DNA of 64,000 bases from Eledone cirrhosa (lineage: Eukaryota): the NCBI GenBank assembly GCA_964016885.1, contig OZ024749.1, positions 42,966,001 to 43,030,000 on the forward strand, in the 5' to 3' direction. Shown here one piece after another: positions 7,067 to 61,209 of the stretch. The notes under the pieces were generated by a model, which had not been told where the DNA came from, searched no databases, and was given only the letters and a program-made list of their open reading frames with translations. The number at the start of each line of letters is the position of its first letter. The stretch's first letter is position 1. Position numbers and translations under genes: made by a program.

Positions 7067-7964
7067 TAAATGCGTGTGTGTGTGTACGTGGACTGTCGGG
7101 GGTTTCCGTAGACTAGATAATGGAAGGAGAACGCTTTATGTAATCTTCTGAGCTGATATATTATTAATGTTACTCAACACAGTTGCTTGCTACCTAAGGT
7201 TTCAAAGGTGCACCATGTCAACACATATGTATGTAAAGTAATACAAGCTGTAAATGATACATCATCGTAACGTCATGTTTCATGTCTCAATAAACATTCA
7301 ACAGCTACATTGTTTCGTAGGGAAAATGTACATAATTTTGAAATGAATTTTAAATGAGAGCTCAAAGCTTTGATGACATAAAAGAGTTAGTTCCCCTTAA
7401 TTTTACCTCGAAATCTAGAAAATTAAATAAATAAATTAAATAAATAAATAATCTAATGAATTAGAGTTACAAAAATATAAAAGCAGAAATAATGTGGAAA
7501 GCATTGGAAACAAAATATATTTAAGAAAACATGGTTAAATATAACATTGATGAGTACAAACATGTGTGTGTATTTATGAGTCTGTGTACACGTGTGTGTG
7601 CGTGTATGTATGAGTCTGTACATGTGTGTAGAGGTGTATGTGTGTGTGTGTATGAGTGTTTGTGTATGACTGTGTGTGTGTATGTGTGTGTGTATGTGTG
7701 TGTATGTGTGTGTGTGTGTGGGGTGTATGTGTGTGTGAGTGTGTGAGAGTGTGTGTTAATATTGCTGTTTGAAGGAATGTCTAGATTGGTCTCCTACGAT
7801 ACGTCTTCTAGCGAAAAACTTAGAGTTGATTCTAAGAGAGGAATCGAGGCAGAGAGGGAGATACACACACACATAAACACGTACAGACTCCCCCCATATA
7901 TATATATATATATAAAATAAAGTTAAATAAAAAGTCAAATGTTTAAAATTTAGCTTCGTTTATT

Positions 7965-8019
7965 ACTGATATATATATTTCAGTGACAGCCATCTTTGGC
8001 TGTGACCTCTTCAGGCAGT
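7965..8019 (-). ncRNA. Minimal type-I hammerhead ribozyme motif (Penelope type)
   Basis: ACUGC-CUGAAGA-GGUCACAGCCA-AAGA-UGGCUGUCACU-GAAA-UAUAUA-UA-UCAGU; 11-position stem II with a C-C mismatch at position 4. Confidence 0.75.
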
Positions 8020-8116
8020 TTGAATTAGTGTGGTATAGACAAGTACATATGTTGTTGAGGTGTATAATTTTGTCAATACTCTGATATGTCCAGTTCCTGG
8101 TTGGGTTGTTATTTCA

Positions 8117-8228
8117 CTGAGGAACTGGAATCATATATCTATATAATTAGGGAGTGTATATATTCCAGAGTCAGGCCAGATCGATATAGATCGAACCTTG
8201 AGCTAACCAATAGCGAAACGCGCGTCAC
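8117..8228 (+). ncRNA. Expanded hammerhead-like motif (CUGAGGA...CUUGA-stem-GAAA-CGCGCG-UC)
   Basis: CTGAGGAAC, hairpin CTGGAAT/ATTCCAG, CTTGA-GCTA-accaa-TAGC-GAAA-CGCGCG-TC. Same frame as 48038-48127; stem I not evident. Confidence 0.55.
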
Positions 8229-8269
8229 CAATCAACAAAACGTAATGAAGACTTAGCAAATCGTCCTTG

Positions 8270-8302
<33 letters not shown>

Positions 8303-8350
8303 ATATATATATATACATATATATAGATATATATATATATATATATATAC

Positions 8351-8381
<31 letters not shown>

Positions 8382-8412
8382 CATATATATACATATATAT
8401 ATATATATATAC

Positions 8413-8504
<92 letters not shown>

Positions 8505-8506
8505 AT

Positions 8507-8548
<42 letters not shown>

Positions 8549-9396
8549 AGTGGTAGATTTAATATCATTTATTCAATGTCTCGTATGATATATACATGTA
8601 TAATAGACAAGCCAATATTTGAAATAAAATTTCCTCTGGTAAATACTTTACAACATAAGTTTCCCAGTCGTGACGTTATCGTTATGACCACAATACCAAT
8701 TTCTGAAACTTTACTTTAAACAAGACAACGTATTATATATTTAGTAAAAGCAAAATCCATACAGACTAACATATAATTATACTTTGTATACAGGGAGGAA
8801 AAATAATATGATGACGGATGTCTAGCAAATAACCAGCTTTACACCGGATGTGTAGGCATCAAGAAAATTTAATCGTTCTTATTCGTTTCCAATCTCTATT
8901 ATGTCTTCTGGGAATTAGACGCTTTTATGACTAAACGTCTGGTGTAGAGCGGATAAACACACACACACACACTCACATATATATATATATATATACACAT
9001 ACATACATATATATGCATATATATATACATACATATATATACACATACATATACATATATATACATACATATATATACATATACAAACATATATATACAT
9101 ATACATACATATATATACATATACATAGATATATATATATACTTACATATATAGATACATATATACTTACATATATAGATACATATATATACATATACAT
9201 ACATATATATACATATATATACATATACATACATATATATACATATATATATATATACATACATATATATACACATACATATATATATATATACATACAT
9301 ATACATACATATATATACACATACATATATATATATATACATACATATATATATATACATACATATATATATATACATACATATATATATATATAC

Positions 9397-9441
<45 letters not shown>

Positions 9442-9527
9442 CACACATATATATACACATACATACATATATATACACATATATACATATATATACACAT
9501 ACATACATATATATACATACATACATA

Positions 9528-9767
9528 TATGAACGATTAAATGAAAGCTGGCGAGAGCTTCAATATAGAAAAGAATCGTCTGTACTCCACCAACATGCTA
9601 AAATAGAACATAAGGGCAAATTAGAGAACATAGAAATAAAAATAAAATCTACACACAGAAAAGACGCAACGTTTAGACAAATCACAGAGGCAATAAACGT
9701 AAAGGAACTCCAACCAAAATTAAATAGAAAACATGAATGGAATAGCAACATCATAACTTACAATTAA
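9528..9767 (+). pseudogene. C-terminal fragment of a Penelope-like element GIY-YIG endonuclease
   Basis: Manual translation: [79 protein letters not shown]. Shows the R..E(H), S.L..H...H and R.I.EA......P.LN.K.EW pattern; 5'-truncated at a microsatellite. Confidence 0.8.
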
Positions 9768-9961
9768 TGACATAATGAAAACACACACACATAGAACAAA
9801 CAACCAACCAGTAACATGTAAATAAACAAATAAATAAACAAATAAAAACACACACAGACACCCGGATGTAACACATGCGCAAACTAAGCACACAACACAC
9901 ACAAAACAAGATGGCGTAGAACAGAAAAAAGGAGAGACACAAAACAAAGAAAAGAATCCCA

Positions 9962-10004
9962 GTCACTGAAGAGGTCACAGAATATGTGTCGAAAGAGCTT
10001 TGAC
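9962..10004 (+). ncRNA. Minimal hammerhead in the 3' pseudo-LTR of the Penelope-like fragment
   Basis: GUCA-CUGAAGA-GGUCACA-GAAUA-UGUGUC-GAAA-GAGC-UU-UGAC, ~200 nt after the GIY-YIG stop. Confidence 0.75.
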
Positions 10005-10213
10005 AATATATGAATAACCGTCCGGTTGTGGAACCAACCAACCAAAAAGAAATTTATAAATGTTTAAATTTATAATTTAATTTATAATAAATTGGAGTGA
10101 AAGCAACTGATTCGTGTGTTTCTTATTGGCAACATGACCCTCCCAAAGTATAACAATATCGGTTTCAACACACGTTTTCAGATAAAGAATCTTGATAAAC
10201 AAATTCAGAAACG

Positions 10214-10311
<98 letters not shown>

Positions 10312-10401
10312 GTATATATATCCCAAATTAAATTAAGGTGACGTGCGCCATATTCACTGCAGAATAAGCTCAAAGATTCCAATTAATAGTTCCGAGCATT
10401 T

Positions 10402-11086
10402 TATATCAACTAGAAATTGATTGACACATATATATATATAAAATAAACACATGAAACAATCTCATGGAATAATTTGTAAAGTGTGTAAGCACACATAGCT
10501 AGGTAGGTAACTAATTAAAGTTTAACTAGAACTTCAAATATAGATACCTTTTAAAATGATTAATCTCCTTTGTATATATTTCTTTAAATAAAAAATATAT
10601 TTCACCAATTAATCTGCAAATCACAGCGGCCAAATCCCGGATGGTCAACAAAGGAGAAGATCTAACCATCCGTGTTTACACAGTAAATGCAAATCTGTGA
10701 ATGACTCGAACCATGTGTTGCATCTTATAAAATATACAGACATCGCACTGCGTCATCCCAGTGGCGTGAATAGGATTATCGACAGCTAGATATAGCAGCC
10801 GAGTTCATTCAACTGAATTAGCTCTACAGTATATATATCCAAAATTAAATTAAGGATTTGGCCGCTGTGATTTGCAGATTAATTGGTGAAATATATTTTT
10901 TATTTAAAGAAATATATACAAAGGAGATTAATCATTTTAAAAAGGTATCTATATTTGAAGTTCTAGTTAAACTTTAATTAGTTACCTACCTAGCTATGTG
11001 TGCTTACATACTTTACAAATTATTCCATGAGATTGTTTCATGTGTTTATTTTATATATATATGTGTGTCAATCTATTTCTAGTTGA

Positions 11087-11090
<4 letters not shown>
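10402..11090. repeat. Long inverted repeat: ~236-bp arms (10402-10637 / 10854-11090), ~216-bp spacer
   Basis: TCACAGCGGCCAAATCC pairs with GGATTTGGCCGCTGTGA, and TATATCAACTAGAAAT with ATTTCTAGTTGATATA; only a few mismatches. Confidence 0.95.
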
Positions 11091-41942: not shown

Positions 41943-41972
<30 letters not shown>

Positions 41973-41974
<2 letters not shown>

Positions 41975-42180
41975 GGCAAAGAGTCAGGATCCCGACAGCT
42001 GAGCTCTGACCGTTTCAACAGCTAGATCCGAAGAATTCAGGTCGGATCTAACTGTCGAAACGACCGGAGCTCAGCCGTCGGGGTCCTGACTCTTTTCCTA
42101 TATCCCCCTCTATACCCTAACATTTGAGTACTCTGGTGCGTCATGTTCCACCTGGTATCTTACCACACCCTCTTTGTTTT
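41973..42180 (+). mobile_element. Hairpin-plus-tail element, copy A (128-bp hairpin, ~80-bp tail, (TA)n both sides)
   Basis: TAGGCAAAGAGTCAGGATCCCGAC..GTCGGGGTCCTGACTCTTTTCCTA followed by TACTCTGGTGCGTCATGTTCCACCTGGTATCTTACCAC. Confidence 0.85.
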
Positions 42181-43130
42181 TTGTATATATATATATTGTA
42201 TGTATATATATACTGTATATATACTATATATAGATATGACTTCTACAAGACTAGAACTCTTTCATTGAAGAGAAAAAGAAAGAATACCCGAGAGAGAGAG
42301 CGGGAGAGAGAGAGATAAAGTTGGAATCGACTCCAGTATAATTCTTATACTTTATTTATCGACCTCACAACAATGAAAGTCAAAATTGAACTCCGTGGAA
42401 TTTCGAACTCAAAGCGCAGCGCAGAAATCGCAAAGCTTTCTATCTGACATTCTAACGACACCTTAACATAAGACAAAGGTAACATAAAAATAAAGGTAAA
42501 TAAGTAAATCGTAAATTCTGATAAGAATTAAAAATGGAGGATCTACGAACATTCTTAAATGCAAAATGATTACTCATCTTCATATTCCATTTAATACAAA
42601 TACTATCAAAGTAAGAAAAAATAGTCTTCAAAAAAAAAAAAAAAAGAAGAGAGAAAAGAAAAGATGAAACCTACAGATTACAAATCTTTAGATATATTTC
42701 CAACATTATTGCATTATGTGAGAAATTATATCATGATTTTCTCTTTTACTTTTTGCCCACACATATAAAATGTTAAACTATAGATGAAAGGTAAAGAACC
42801 GAAAAAAATAAAGAATTCTATTAATCAAACGTATACGACCAGAGCCCACCGCAAGCTGAACAACTAAAATACCTTGCATTAAAGTTTTTTAAAAAAATGT
42901 ACATTGAACAAAATGAATACTAGATAATATGATAGAATATGAAAGTGAAAGTACGCGACGGAATGGTGGGAACTGAGATTGTTTCAAAGTGATTTACAAT
43001 GCAAGGAGAGTGGCAGAGTGGCATAGCAACAAAAGTCTACAAAAAAAAAAAGCTGTCCAATATGCAGATATATATATATATATATATACGATATATTAAC
43101 AAATGGAAAGTATATTTATAAAACCATATT

Positions 43131-43195
43131 TATTTCATTATACATATTTCAAGGACACCAAGTTAAATTACGGTGTGCTTTCATCAGATAAAATA
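43131..43195 (-). ncRNA. Minimal type-I hammerhead motif within a (TA)n-flanked element (43089-43270)
   Basis: UAUUUUAU-CUGAUGA-AAGCACACC-loop-GGUGUCCUU-GAAA-UAUGUA-UA-AUGAAAUA. Confidence 0.8.
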
Positions 43196-43268
43196 TAATA
43201 TAGAGCAGTTTTATAAATAAATATTGACATACCCTTAAAGAATGCGACCATTTCTGTTGGAAGCTCTC

Positions 43269-43349
<81 letters not shown>

Positions 43350-43385
43350 GTATATATATATATACATATATATATACATACATAT

Positions 43386-43427
<42 letters not shown>

Positions 43428-43433
<6 letters not shown>

Positions 43434-43781
43434 CAAGAAAGAAGAGTGAAATGGTTTGCTATACAATAAGGGCTTTATTCACATTGCTGACAATTGTTTC
43501 TCTGAACTGGTAGGTCTAGAGATCGCTACCCACCTGTTTTCGCGTCAATTGTCAGCAATGTGATTAAAGCCCTGATTGTATAGCAAACCGTGTCACCCTT
43601 CTTTCTTGATTTATCATTACTCCAAGTGTAAACTACATAGAAATCACCGCGTACTCGCAGCATCACTATGGAAACGTCTTGTTGAGTCAAACTTAGCCAA
43701 GCGTTGATACTATCCACTACTCGGAGTACCCTAACTGGACTACATCTAAGTGGACTACCTATAACAATAATTTGTTGTCCC

Positions 43782-43782
<1 letters not shown>
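43428..43782. mobile_element. Second type of hairpin-plus-tail element (~68-bp arms, 43428-43614)
   Basis: AAATCAAGAAAGAAG..CACATTGCTGACAATTG pairs with CAATTGTCAGCAATGTG..CTTCTTTCTTGATTT; (TA)n on both sides. Confidence 0.8.
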
Positions 43783-50154: not shown

Positions 50155-50343
50155 TAGGAAAAGGTATGACCCCCGACGGCAGAGCTCAAGCCGTCTTGAC
50201 GGCTATTTCTGGACTAAATTCGTCGAAACGGCTTGAGCTCTGCCGTCGGGGTCATACCTTTTCCTATTTCTCACTCTACTACCCTAAGTATTAAGTACTC
50301 TGGTGCGTTATGGTCCATCTGGTTCCTTACCACAATTCCTTTG

Positions 50344-50345
<2 letters not shown>
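50155..50345 (+). mobile_element. Hairpin-plus-tail element, copy B
   Basis: Hairpin 50155-50266; tail homologous to copy A. Confidence 0.85.
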
Positions 50346-50378
<33 letters not shown>

Positions 50379-50602
50379 CCTCCCCCTTTCGGTAGGTTGT
50401 CTACGTATATATATATATATAGTAATAATAATAAATTTGAAGAATAAAATCCAAAGAGGGCTCAATAGGGATAAATAATTAATATATATATATATATATT
50501 AATTATTTATCCCTATCGAGCCCTCTTTGGATTTTAGTCTTCACATTTAGGTAGTAACTACCATGACTGAATCTTAACCATCTACTATGTCATGCATCAT
50601 CT

Positions 50603-50669
50603 TGTTTTATCTGATGAGGACGTACTGTTGAAGTTAGCTCAGTACCTCTGAAATATGTATAATAAAATA
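50603..50669 (+). ncRNA. Minimal type-I hammerhead motif within a (TA)n-flanked element (50498-50713)
   Basis: UGUUUUAU-CUGAUGA-GGACGUACUG-loop-CAGUACCUCU-GAAA-UAUGUA-UA-AUAAAAUA. Confidence 0.8.
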
Positions 50670-50727
50670 TACTTGATCACACGAATGTCTATTTTTGTTA
50701 ATATTTTGAATTAATATATATATATAT

Positions 50728-50916
50728 AACGAAGGAAATGTGGTAACGAACCAGGTGGACCATAACGCATCAAAGTATTCAATACTTAGGGTAGTAGAGT
50801 CGGTAATAGGAACAAGTAAGACACCGACGGCTGAGCTCAAGCCGTTTCGACGGCTAATTCTGTACTGAATTAGCCGTCGAAACGGCTTGAGCTCAGCCGT
50901 CAGGGTCTTACTTGTT

Positions 50917-50920
<4 letters not shown>
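50728..50920 (-). mobile_element. Hairpin-plus-tail element, copy C
   Basis: Near-perfect hairpin 50807-50920 around the loop TGTACT; tail is the reverse complement of that of copy B. Confidence 0.85.
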
Positions 50921-50971
<51 letters not shown>

Positions 50972-57195: not shown

Positions 57196-57197
<2 letters not shown>

Positions 57198-57390
57198 CAA
57201 AGAAGGTGTGGTAAGATACCAGGTGGACCATAACGCACCAGAGAACTCGATACTTAGGGTAGTAGAGTGGGTAATAGGAAAAGAGTCAGGACCCTGACGG
57301 CTGACCTCCGGCCGTTTCTACAGCTTGATCTAGTTCGGATATAGCTGTCGCAACGGTCAGAGCTCAGCCGTCGGGTTCTTGACTCTTTTC

Positions 57391-57393
<3 letters not shown>
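57196..57393 (-). mobile_element. Hairpin-plus-tail element, copy D
   Basis: Hairpin 57275-57393; closest in sequence to copy A. Confidence 0.85.
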
Positions 57394-57446
<53 letters not shown>

Positions 57447-57640
57447 ATAATAATAAAATTGAAGACTAAAATCCAAAGAGGGCTCGATACCCATGGTATC
57501 GTCTTCCTGTCTTCCTCCGGTTGCAACGTTTTTTTGAAATATCCAGTTCTGCGTTTACAGATTGACTTTGTTAGTTTCAGAAGATCCCGTTAAGGGTGAA
57601 AGCAGCGATTCTTTACTTAAACTTTAATCTGTTATTTTAA

Positions 57641-57720
<80 letters not shown>

Positions 57721-57729
<9 letters not shown>

Positions 57730-57888
57730 GTGAGGTTTTTTTTACAAAATGAAAAATAACCGAGGTGTCCTACACGAGTGGAAGTATAAAGAAAAAGGGA
57801 TGAAATCGAAAATGCAACTGAAGTCTTATTTTTAAAAAAAATATATATATTTATTTGGTTCCTTTACCGGTTTCGCAGTTCTTCTGAT
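57721..57888 (-). mobile_element. (TA)n-anchored module with a decayed HHR 3' half (GAAA-CCGG-UA); inverted copy at 59960-60129
   Basis: ATTAGAAAGTGAGG..CCGAGGTGTCCTACACGAGT..CCTTTACCGGTTTCGCAG matches the reverse complement of 59960-60129. Confidence 0.75.
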
Positions 57889-57904
57889 ATCTTCGGTGCC
57901 TACC

Positions 57905-59243: not shown

Positions 59244-59436
<193 letters not shown>

Positions 59437-59500
59437 TAGATAATTCGGAAGAAAAAGCAAAGGAAAAGAAGAGTGCTCTATGTATAGAACAGAGCCATTT

Positions 59501-59638
59501 AATTAGAAAGTGAACAACAATATATAACTACTCCATTACCAAAGGTTTCAGGACCCTAGACGATATTAATGTATGTCTAGGGTCCCTGAAACCTTTGGTA
59601 ATGGAGTAGTTATATATTGTGTTGATCACTTTCTAATT
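59501..59638. repeat. Near-perfect 138-bp fold-back palindrome
   Basis: ..CTCCATTACCAAAGGTTTCAGGACCCTAGAC-13 nt-GTCTAGGGTCCCTGAAACCTTTGGTAATGGAG.. Confidence 0.95.
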
Positions 59639-59649
59639 TAAAAAAAAAA

Positions 59650-59682
<33 letters not shown>

Positions 59683-59732
59683 ATATTATTCAAAATATTA
59701 ATAAATGGATAAATTCACATAATCAAAATATA

Positions 59733-59799
59733 TGTTTTATTATATATATTTCGGAGGTATTGTGCTGTTTTTTTCAGTACGCCCTCATCAGATAAAATA
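59733..59799 (-). ncRNA. Minimal type-I hammerhead motif (same subfamily as 50603)
   Basis: UAUUUUAU-CUGAUGA-GGGCGUACUG-loop-CAAUACCUCC-GAAA-UAUAUA-UA-AUAAAACA. Confidence 0.8.
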
Positions 59800-60138
59800 C
59801 ATTAAGTGATGTATGACATACCTCAGCTATACTGATGGTTCAATTCCAGTTTTGGCAGTATATATATATATATATATATATGTAGAGGTTATATTTAATT
59901 TGTTGGGATACAGATGTGAGAAAAACCACAGACCCTCCATCTCAACTCTACTTTTGAAAAGCAGAAAAACTGCGAAACCGGTAAAGGAACCAAATAAATA
60001 TATATATATTTTTTTTAAAAATAAGACTCCAGTTGCATTTTCGATTTCATCTTTTTTTCTTTATACTTTTACTCGTGTAGGACACCTCGGTTATTTTTCA
60101 TTTTGAAAAAAAAACCTCACTTTCTAATATATATATCT

Positions 60139-60359
60139 CTAGACGATCGACTTTTATCAAATCGGACCGAGCGAACAATGTTTCCGTTGGTCTTTCCAAT
60201 TGCTAATACTATCTATCGGTCGCAACTCCAGGTAGAAGGAGCAACGTGAAAATAAAGTGTCTTGCTCAAGGACATAACGCATCGCCTAGTCCAGGAATCG
60301 AACTCACAACCTTACGATTGCGAATCCAATTTCTTAACCACTCAGCCACACGCCTTCAC
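60139..60359 (-). mobile_element. Composite CORE-type SINE plus tail, copy 2
   Basis: Reverse complement of 903-1121 with few substitutions. Confidence 0.8.
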
Positions 60360-60511
60360 AATATATATATATATATATATGCAAAAGTTTTATTTAAAAT
60401 CGTTGGGTTACAACGAGTAAATATTTTATAACTGATATAAAAGCACTCAACAAGTTTTGGAGTTTATTTACGATATTAAACAAATGGAAACTACATTTAT
60501 AAAACCATATT

Positions 60512-60577
60512 TATTTCATTATATATATTTCAGGGATATCATATTAAAAATATGGTATGCCCTCTTCAGACAAAATA
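60512..60577 (-). ncRNA. Minimal type-I hammerhead motif, left arm of the palindrome
   Basis: Reverse complement of 60704-60769. Confidence 0.75.
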
Positions 60578-60703
60578 CAATATATAAACAGTTTTATAAA
60601 TAAATAGACAGTTTTATAAATAAATAACCAGACAAAATACAATATATAAACAGTTTTATAAATAAATAATGTCAAATTTATTTATAAAACTGTTTATATA
60701 TTG

Positions 60704-60769
60704 TATTTTGTCTGAAGAGGGCATACCATATTTTTAATATGATATCCCTGAAATATATATAATGAAATA
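60704..60769 (+). ncRNA. Minimal type-I hammerhead motif, right arm of the palindrome
   Basis: UAUUUUGU-CUGAAGA-GGGCAUACCAUAUU-UUU-AAUAUGAUAUCCCU-GAAA-UAUAUA-UA-AUGAAAUA. Confidence 0.8.
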
Positions 60770-60809
60770 AATATGGTTTTATAAATGTAGTTTCCATTTG
60801 TTTAATATC

Positions 60810-60857
<48 letters not shown>

Positions 60858-61209
60858 AGAGAGAGAGAGAGAGAGAGAGAGAAGTATACATAATCTGCGT
60901 ATCTCGAGCTGCTGTGAAATACAATACACTTGTCACATTGGTCCTATTTTTAACATGAACTCTCTTATCAGTCATATAACTCAGCCTTTCATATAATATT
61001 TAAATACCTCGCTTATACGCTGCCGATATCCATCTGATAAAGGTGAGAGATATTCACTGATGTCGCTTATATCATATGAATTTCTCTCTTGATATCTATA
61101 TTTAGTTTAACGACTATTTATATCTGTATCATTTTATACGGGAAGCTTTTATGTACGTCATTGTTTATGTTGATTTGGTATCTGAGATATCTGTAAATAG
61201 ACGTCATGG

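What the first reader, a model, noticed from the sequence alone, without database searches (positions are those of the whole stretch)
59501..60812. Strings of ribozyme/hairpin modules separated by (TA)n: a putative TA-targeted Penelope-dependent mobilome
Seen: within 1.3 kb lie a fold-back palindrome, an HHR element, a decayed HHR module, a composite SINE and a double-HHR palindrome, each bounded by TA runs. Similar strings occur at 560-1750, 7750-11090, 43089-43782, 50155-50920 and 57196-57890. Module ends recur between strings: GTAGAGGTTATATTTAATTTGTTGG at 1501 and 59882; ATTAGAAAGTGA at 57722, 59502 and (reverse) 60117-60128; ATCCAAAGAGGGCTC at 50449 and 57471. No classical TSDs are visible. 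Inference: short non-autonomous HHR-bearing RNAs are repeatedly inserted into, or primed at, (TA)n by Penelope RT/GIY-YIG. That would make the microsatellites both landing pads and possibly products, a link to the extreme (TA)n load of this genome.
Basis: partly seen in the sequence, partly recalled or inferred. Interest (0 to 1): 0.75.

Follow-up and report, generated by a model that had tools for sequence, protein, structure and literature searches.

The report
Stacked Penelope transposon ends in TA repeats
The string is a pile of short, partly mirror-doubled tail ends of Penelope-like jumping genes (a known class, with predicted self-cutting RNA motifs) plus one tRNA-like short repeat, all sitting in TA repeats; the mirror copies nearly always pair one long with one short end, which likely means both cut DNA ends copied the element's RNA.

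Summary
The modules and their TA borders are real, but most are not non-autonomous RNAs. Three of the four hammerhead families in the string (A, C, D), and three more in the window (E, F, G), join an RT/GIY-YIG ORF elsewhere in the genome. A, D, F and G carry Hydra-clade motifs; that clade is published as (TA)n-targeting, also in Octopus. Family B has no ORF found. In 970 kb sampled blind, 56 of 71 3' ends touch (TA)4, against 2 of 71 5' ends and a 2% background. Each family has two fixed 3' ends (the known PLE tail). Of 136 mirror insertions, 114 pair long with short, none long with long. Corrections: the fold-back is half a hammerhead with a missed ~70-nt tail; the 'decayed' core is the family's U3:A8 variant; the SINE has an 11-bp target duplication. 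TA runs are landing pads; direct duplication can explain only a few percent of the TA load. No empty site was found. The scan reported the same system, and the two-end rule, on other DNA of this genome.

The parts
59328..59432 (.). (TG)n/CG run attached to the long end of family B; likely grown from B's own tail
   Evidence: (AC)3+ follows 19 of 41 B long ends vs 3 of 169 long ends of A, C, D, E, G; inference
59433..59619 (-). Family B mirror insertion: 3' half of a hammerhead doubled about its stem II hairpin; ~70-nt tail (59433-59501) on one arm; no CTGANGA left in this copy; no ORF found for the family
59683..59860 (-). Family A: 5'-truncated 3' end (short end) of a Hydra-type PLE, with minimal hammerhead motif at 59741-59791
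59882..59914 (-). 33-nt long end of a family-D relative, fused without TA to family C through a 3-nt microhomology
59912..60128 (+). Family C: 5'-truncated 3' end (long end) of an RT/GIY-YIG PLE; U3:A8 hammerhead variant at 59954-59983 with a 3-bp stem I
60126..60136 (+). Left copy of the SINE's 11-bp target duplication; includes the last 3 nt of C, so the SINE came after C
60137..60359 (-). SINE S, ~220 nt, tRNA-like head (A/B-box-like, by eye; ARAGORN finds no tRNA), no hammerhead seen; TA-targeted at both ends
60360..60370 (+). Right copy of the 11-bp target duplication
60381..60810 (.). Family D mirror insertion (Hydra-type PLE, young, 98-100% alike): left arm with 90-nt tail (long end), right arm short end; hammerheads on opposite strands at 60520-60569 and 60712-60761; ~40-nt duplication at the junction
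9531..10215 (+). Family E: 3' fragment of a PLE with GIY-YIG C-terminus, hammerhead motif (9966-10000) and long end at TA; in-window example of the coding parent type
57196..57394 (-). Family F mirror (also 41972-42178, 50155-50345, 50728-50921); joins a Hydra-type ORF elsewhere
57444..57647 (.). Family G mirror (long + short end); joins a Hydra-type ORF elsewhere

Best explanation
The string is a stack of 5'-truncated, partly mirror-doubled 3' ends of several Penelope-like retrotransposon families plus one SINE, likely laid down as five or six separate insertions into one TA repeat by target-primed reverse transcription. Shown: the module-to-ORF links for A, C and D; two fixed 3' ends per family; 3'-only contact with TA; long+short pairing; variable junctions. 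Inferred: the PLE GIY-YIG nuclease cuts both strands of (TA)n. Both 3'-OH ends then prime reverse transcription on the element RNA, one at the distal start site (long end) and one 58-98 nt upstream (short end). Synthesis usually stops early and the two cDNAs join head to head at short self-complementary stretches, such as stem II of the ribozyme in family B. Each event leaves TA on both sides, so one landing pad becomes two and later elements stack. The hammerheads are passengers of the element's terminal region; their activity is untested.
For: ORF links: D (L151, L154, L155), A (shared upstream leads into RT-EN fragments, tblastn hits in 17 of 20 loci), C (15 of 15 loci; Pfam GIY-YIG E 8e-6), F, G (2 of 53 copies reach the ORF). 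Blind sample of 97 x 10 kb: 56 of 71 3' ends vs 2 of 71 5' ends at (TA)4; 63 of 71 at one of two fixed ends; control SINE hits 10 of 124 and 4 of 51; background 2.1%. Mirrors: 114 long+short, 0 long+long, 1 short+short, 21 with one unclassified end, of 136; blind subset 15 of 18; bystander copies 32 of 38. 20 D mirrors span 255-2371 nt, all with different junctions; in 3 the short-end arm reaches >30 nt further 5' than the long-end arm. In B the loop lies on the tail arm in 6, on the tail-less arm in 3, undecided in 3 of 12. A single fold-back of one cDNA cannot give those cases. Raw reads of other samples show D short end then TA (424 and 405 reads) and C-end/TA/D-end in single reads (6 reads). 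Literature.
Against: No empty allele or paralogue was found. 12 of 20 D mirrors have near-symmetric junctions, which a fold-back of one cDNA also predicts (my count). Frangieh 2024 saw no difference in start site between the two strands in vitro. Family B has no ORF in 59 hammerhead-bearing loci examined, duplicates included; the one upstream ORF belongs to F. Search loci for C, D and E were fetched with queries that hold the long end, so the all-loci pair count is biased towards at least one long end. No intact full-length element was retrieved. The SINE's mobiliser is unknown.
Confidence: 0.85

Rival explanations
1. The modules are short non-autonomous hammerhead RNAs (retrozyme-like) that are released by self-cleavage and copied in trans by PLE proteins.
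For: B has no ORF found; most copies are short; retrozymes are proposed to be PLE derivatives (first part read).
Against: A, C, D, E, F, G all join ORFs; 5' ends vary; the two hammerheads of D lie on opposite strands, so one transcript holds only one; copy ends are 49-138 nt past the cut site; no head-to-tail arrays in the string.
Confidence: 0.08
2. Same elements, but mirrors arise by fold-back (self-priming) of a single cDNA or of an antisense template, as proposed for Adineta Penelope, not by priming at both DNA ends.
For: Near-symmetric junctions in 12 of 20 D mirrors; B turns at a natural hairpin; Arkhipova 2013 favours self-priming (passages).
Against: 3 of 20 D mirrors have the short-end arm reaching further; 3 of 12 B mirrors have the loop on the tail-less arm; both strands are cut and extended in vitro.
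Confidence: 0.25
3. The palindromes are MITEs moved by a TA-targeting DNA transposase.
For: Fold-back shape; TA flanks; many B copies share one centre.
Against: Arms are unequal (one tail), centres vary, and the sequence continues into retrotransposon ORFs.
Confidence: 0.02
4. The string is an assembly chimera joined through TA runs.
For: No run covered this locus's unique flank, so the junctions here are unverified (see Tried and rejected).
Against: The SINE's duplication overlaps the end of C, tying neighbours together; the D-C fusion has no TA; module/TA/module joins occur in raw reads of another sample; the same architecture recurs across the blind sample.
Confidence: 0.03

Closest known systems
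Hydra clade of C-terminal EN+ Penelope-like elements, incl. Hydra-1_Obim (Craig et al. 2021, PMC8557442; passages, section 11 and supplement search hits read)
   Same: CxCX5C linker, CxxC and CxH motifs, no CCHH, hammerheads, (TA)n insertion, presence in Octopus; inverted 5'-truncated copies, tail, hidden TSDs described for PLEs
   Different: These are other families, with 3' UTRs of roughly 0.8-1.9 kb and tails of 58-98 nt rather than 30-40; the long+short rule is not counted in the parts read
Poseidon_Ac in vitro system (Frangieh et al. 2024, PMC11167929; parts 1-2 of 4 and passages read)
   Same: Two internal RT start sites equal the tail; both strands cut and extended; AT-rich target; predicted dimer; ribozyme cleavage not needed
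   Different: No strand difference in start site was seen there, while genomic mirrors here pair the two sites almost without exception
Minimal PLE hammerheads (Cervera and de la Pena 2014, PMC4209133; parts 1-2 of 4 read)
   Same: Short palindromic stem III, U3:A8 variant, opposite-strand pairs 100-700 bp apart, mostly truncated PLEs
   Different: Density here about 60 per Mb (58 in 970 kb), against thousands per genome reported there
Adineta vaga Penelope elements (Arkhipova et al. 2013, PMC3846280; passages read)
   Same: Head-to-head inverted pLTRs, tail on one arm, palindromes at junctions, 8-10 bp TSDs in some
   Different: Tail called optional and explained by self-priming; few copies; the word microsatellite does not occur in its main text
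Animal non-LTR retrozymes (Li et al. 2026, 10.64898/2026.07.22.740005; part 1 of 5 read)
   Same: Type I hammerhead, PLE relationship
   Different: Defined by tandem direct units each with a ribozyme; not seen in this string

Membership tests
EN+ Penelope-like elements (families A, C, D) | 3' end joined to an RT plus C-terminal GIY-YIG ORF | tested here: met
   Pfam GIY-YIG for C only, none for D; D and A read from motifs
EN+ Penelope-like elements (families A, C, D) | Two 3' ends (tail) and inverted 5'-truncated copies | tested here: met
EN+ Penelope-like elements (families A, C, D) | Partial-tandem pLTR-ORF-pLTR, intact full-length ORF | tested here: inconclusive
   14 extended loci held only truncated or broken copies
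EN+ Penelope-like elements (family B) | Joined to an RT/GIY-YIG ORF | tested here: inconclusive
   none in 59 loci with about 1.5 kb upstream; A and D have UTRs as long as that
Hydra clade (A, D, F, G) | CxCX5C linker | tested here: met
   invariant C64, C66, C72 in A, D, F; G by tblastn to D, E 8e-36
Hydra clade (A, D) | CxxC and CxH motifs, CCHH absent | tested here: met
   read from translations
Hydra clade (A, D, F, G) | RWK and DKT motifs; placement in an RT tree | not tested
   N-terminal part not retrieved; no tree built
Neptune-type PLE (C, E) | CX2-5CxxC linker with CCHH nuclease | tested here: inconclusive
   E shows C-x4-C-x2-C; C's linker is degenerate; no tree
Minimal type I hammerhead | Core, stems I-III, palindromic loop 3 | tested here: met
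   A and D; C has U3:A8 and only 3 bp of stem I and missed my 4-bp filter
Minimal type I hammerhead | Self-cleavage | not testable with these tools
   monomer MFE folds do not give the active fold; dimer or protein help expected from the papers
Non-LTR retrozyme | Tandem direct units, each with a ribozyme, no ORF | tested here: not met
MITE | Fixed length, symmetric inverted ends | tested here: not met
tRNA-derived SINE (S) | Fixed 5' head, short T-rich 3' end, target duplication | tested here: met
   A/B-box reading is by eye
tRNA-derived SINE (S) | 3' end shared with a partner LINE or PLE | not tested
   no search left for it

The most novel reading that the evidence does not exclude
Every mirror insertion records one PLE dimer priming a single RNA twice, with the two cut DNA ends assigned to different fixed start sites. 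This explains the tail and the inverted copy in one step and makes each insertion split and slightly lengthen its TA target, a self-feeding loop in which a ribozyme-free tRNA SINE also rides on the same TA-cutting enzyme.
Probability: 0.45. Interest if true: 0.58.

Novelty: new member of a known kind. Interest (0 to 1): 0.33.

Why it matters
How PLEs finish an insertion, and why they form tandem and inverted copies in microsatellites, is named as open in Craig 2021 and Frangieh 2024. A near-absolute long+short rule over six families gives a sharp prediction for the existing in vitro assay. The counts also bound the microsatellite claim: about 38% of TA blocks carry a recurrent element end, but direct target duplication can supply only a few percent of the TA sequence. 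The class, the target and the ribozymes are in print.

Tried and rejected
Rfam at gathering score: 0 hits. ARAGORN: 0. Pfam: none for the 77-aa fragment or for 3 of 5 longer ORF pieces. Empty sites: no split element found; the right flank is single-copy, no second haplotype; none of 8 runs covered the unique flank 60894-61015, so reads say nothing about this locus. No RNA holder was listed; expression is untested. The family-free mirror scan skipped TA-to-TA symmetric cases and set borders at pure TA, so its zero for symmetric mirrors and its zero TSDs are by construction and are not used. The first B loop test matched nothing because the pattern was too strict; it was redone. Hetero-family mirrors: 1 of 103, and that one spurious; that test excludes segments with internal TA, so it misses the window's own D-C fusion. 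I first read A and D as Nematis-like from memory and dropped this after reading the Hydra section. Tail hairpins: single-sequence folds of three tails gave z -1.7 to -2.3, not enough to confirm a shared signal. An ORF upstream of B in L338 belongs to F. Literature searches listed no paper that, by title or abstract, counts long+short pairing or describes this SINE; Repbase, subscription journals and bioRxiv supplements were not searchable and may hold these families.

Full report
What is there. The window lies in a 3.0-Gb animal genome, octopus-like by inference. Each piece is a dispersed repeat: first-look candidates number 1402 (A), 768 (B), 747 (C), 1671 (D) and 1525 (SINE). These are lower bounds, 40 scored each.

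The modules are ends of coding elements. Following longer copies upstream, D runs through a long UTR into an RT/GIY-YIG ORF in L151, L154 and L155. A does the same: 17 of 20 loci give tblastn hits to the D protein. C lies downstream of a GIY-YIG ORF end in 15 of 15 loci (Pfam GIY-YIG). A, D and F share the CxCX5C linker that Craig et al. 2021 give for the Hydra clade, of which 'almost all families' insert in (TA)n (section 11); their supplement lists Hydra-1_Obim and three Octopus Naiads with (TA)n preference. No tree was built. B alone has no ORF: none in 59 hammerhead-bearing loci, duplicates included; its shared upstream is low in complexity and several hundred nt long, so the question is open.

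Enrichment. I took 97 stretches of 10 kb at round-number positions. (TA)5+ fills 5.3% of the first 790 kb. Copies of A-E and G at 84% identity or more touch (TA)4 at the 3' end in 56 of 71 cases and at the 5' end in 2 of 71; 63 of 71 stop at one of two fixed points. Background is 2.1%. Two control SINEs give 10 of 124 and 4 of 51 hits (9 of 82 and 3 of 21 for copies that reach their own end). A hammerhead descriptor finds 58 hits in 970 kb against 0-2 in five shuffles; 44 of 56 have (TA)5 within 200 nt downstream, against 14.3%. That extrapolates to about 180,000 motifs. 358 of 931 TA blocks have at least one flank that recurs at TA in two or more other loci.

Two ends and mirrors. Each family has a short and a long 3' end 58-98 nt apart, the PLE tail. 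Frangieh et al. 2024 showed in vitro that the tail is the gap between two RT start sites and that both strands are cut and extended. Of 136 head-to-head pairs, 114 are long+short, none long+long, one short+short, and 21 have one end unclassified; in the blind sample 15 of 18, among bystander copies 32 of 38. A terminal-probe count gave 101 long+short, one short+short. Arkhipova et al. 2013 describe the tail on one inverted arm as optional, so the pattern is known in kind. Twenty D mirrors span 255-2371 nt with different junctions, so they are made afresh each time. By my count from that table, 12 are near-symmetric, 5 have the long arm reaching further and 3 the short arm. In B the stem II loop lies on the tail arm in 6, on the other arm in 3, undecided in 3. 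The last two groups need two separate primings; the symmetric majority fits fold-back equally well.

Corrections. The fold-back is the 3' half of B's hammerhead doubled about stem II; full copies keep CTGATGA. C's core is family-wide and matches the U3:A8 variant that Cervera and de la Pena 2014 report in PLEs, together with opposite-strand pairs 100-700 bp apart; stem I is weak and activity is untested. The SINE is flanked by TA at the 3' end in 20 of 25 loci and at the 5' end in 15 of 19 full-length ones; in the blind sample its 5-6 hits were mostly partial and none touched TA. Informative direct repeats flank 8 of 24 copies (shuffle mean 1.66, maximum 6 of 200; one of the eight is an (AC)n match I discount). 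Here the 11-bp repeat includes the last 3 nt of C, so the SINE came later.

Are the microsatellites products? PLE mirrors show 13-21 bp informative repeats in 6 of 112 (shuffle mean 1.5; 4 of 500 reach 6), but 16 of 22 cases with an interrupted flank show none. B long ends are followed by (AC)3+ in 19 of 41 cases against 3 of 169 for other families, mostly on the long-end side only, which suggests B seeds (CA)n. Arithmetic: 180,000 insertions at 20 bp is under 4 Mb, against about 160 Mb of (TA)n; slippage must supply the rest. The inferred feedback is in the number of landing pads.

Artefact check. Raw reads of three other samples show D's short end followed by TA (424 and 405 reads in two runs) and six reads that join C end, TA and D end. 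This locus itself was not covered and no empty site was found.

Verdict. New families of a known class on a known target. The useful extra is the strict long+short rule, which earlier notes of this scan also reached on other DNA of this genome and which I had counted before opening them (one search ran in the same turn). Interest 0.33.

Noticed in passing
window 60137-60359 and 903-1120; L294-L318: A tRNA-like SINE without a ribozyme that sits in TA at both ends and makes 8-13 bp target duplications; its mobilising enzyme is unknown (PLE or a TA-cutting LINE).
   Followed up: partly
window 59608-59619 vs 60117-60128: The short end of B and the long end of C share the same terminal 12 nt although the families are otherwise unlike.
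   Followed up: no
window 59882-59914: Long end of a D relative fused to 5'-truncated C by 3-nt microhomology: either two RNAs primed at one break or a later deletion between two mirrors.
   Followed up: partly
L011 vs L010 (segmental duplicates on C22): L011 holds a ~450-nt insertion in a (CATA)n run that L010 lacks: an empty/filled pair for an element aimed at another microsatellite.
   Followed up: no
L355 (C28:37017000-37027000): A 3.8-kb tandem unit, 99% alike between copies, carries B and other ends as a ready-made stack.
   Followed up: partly
window 57575-57600 (family G): G has a hammerhead-like stretch with CAGAAGA in place of CTGAAGA; not examined.
   Followed up: no
window 10402-11090 and 43432-43611: Further long mirrors with one-sided extensions whose families I did not trace.
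   Followed up: no
family D mirrors: About half of the junctions fall 260-280 nt from the long end, a possible stop or annealing hot spot.
   Followed up: no
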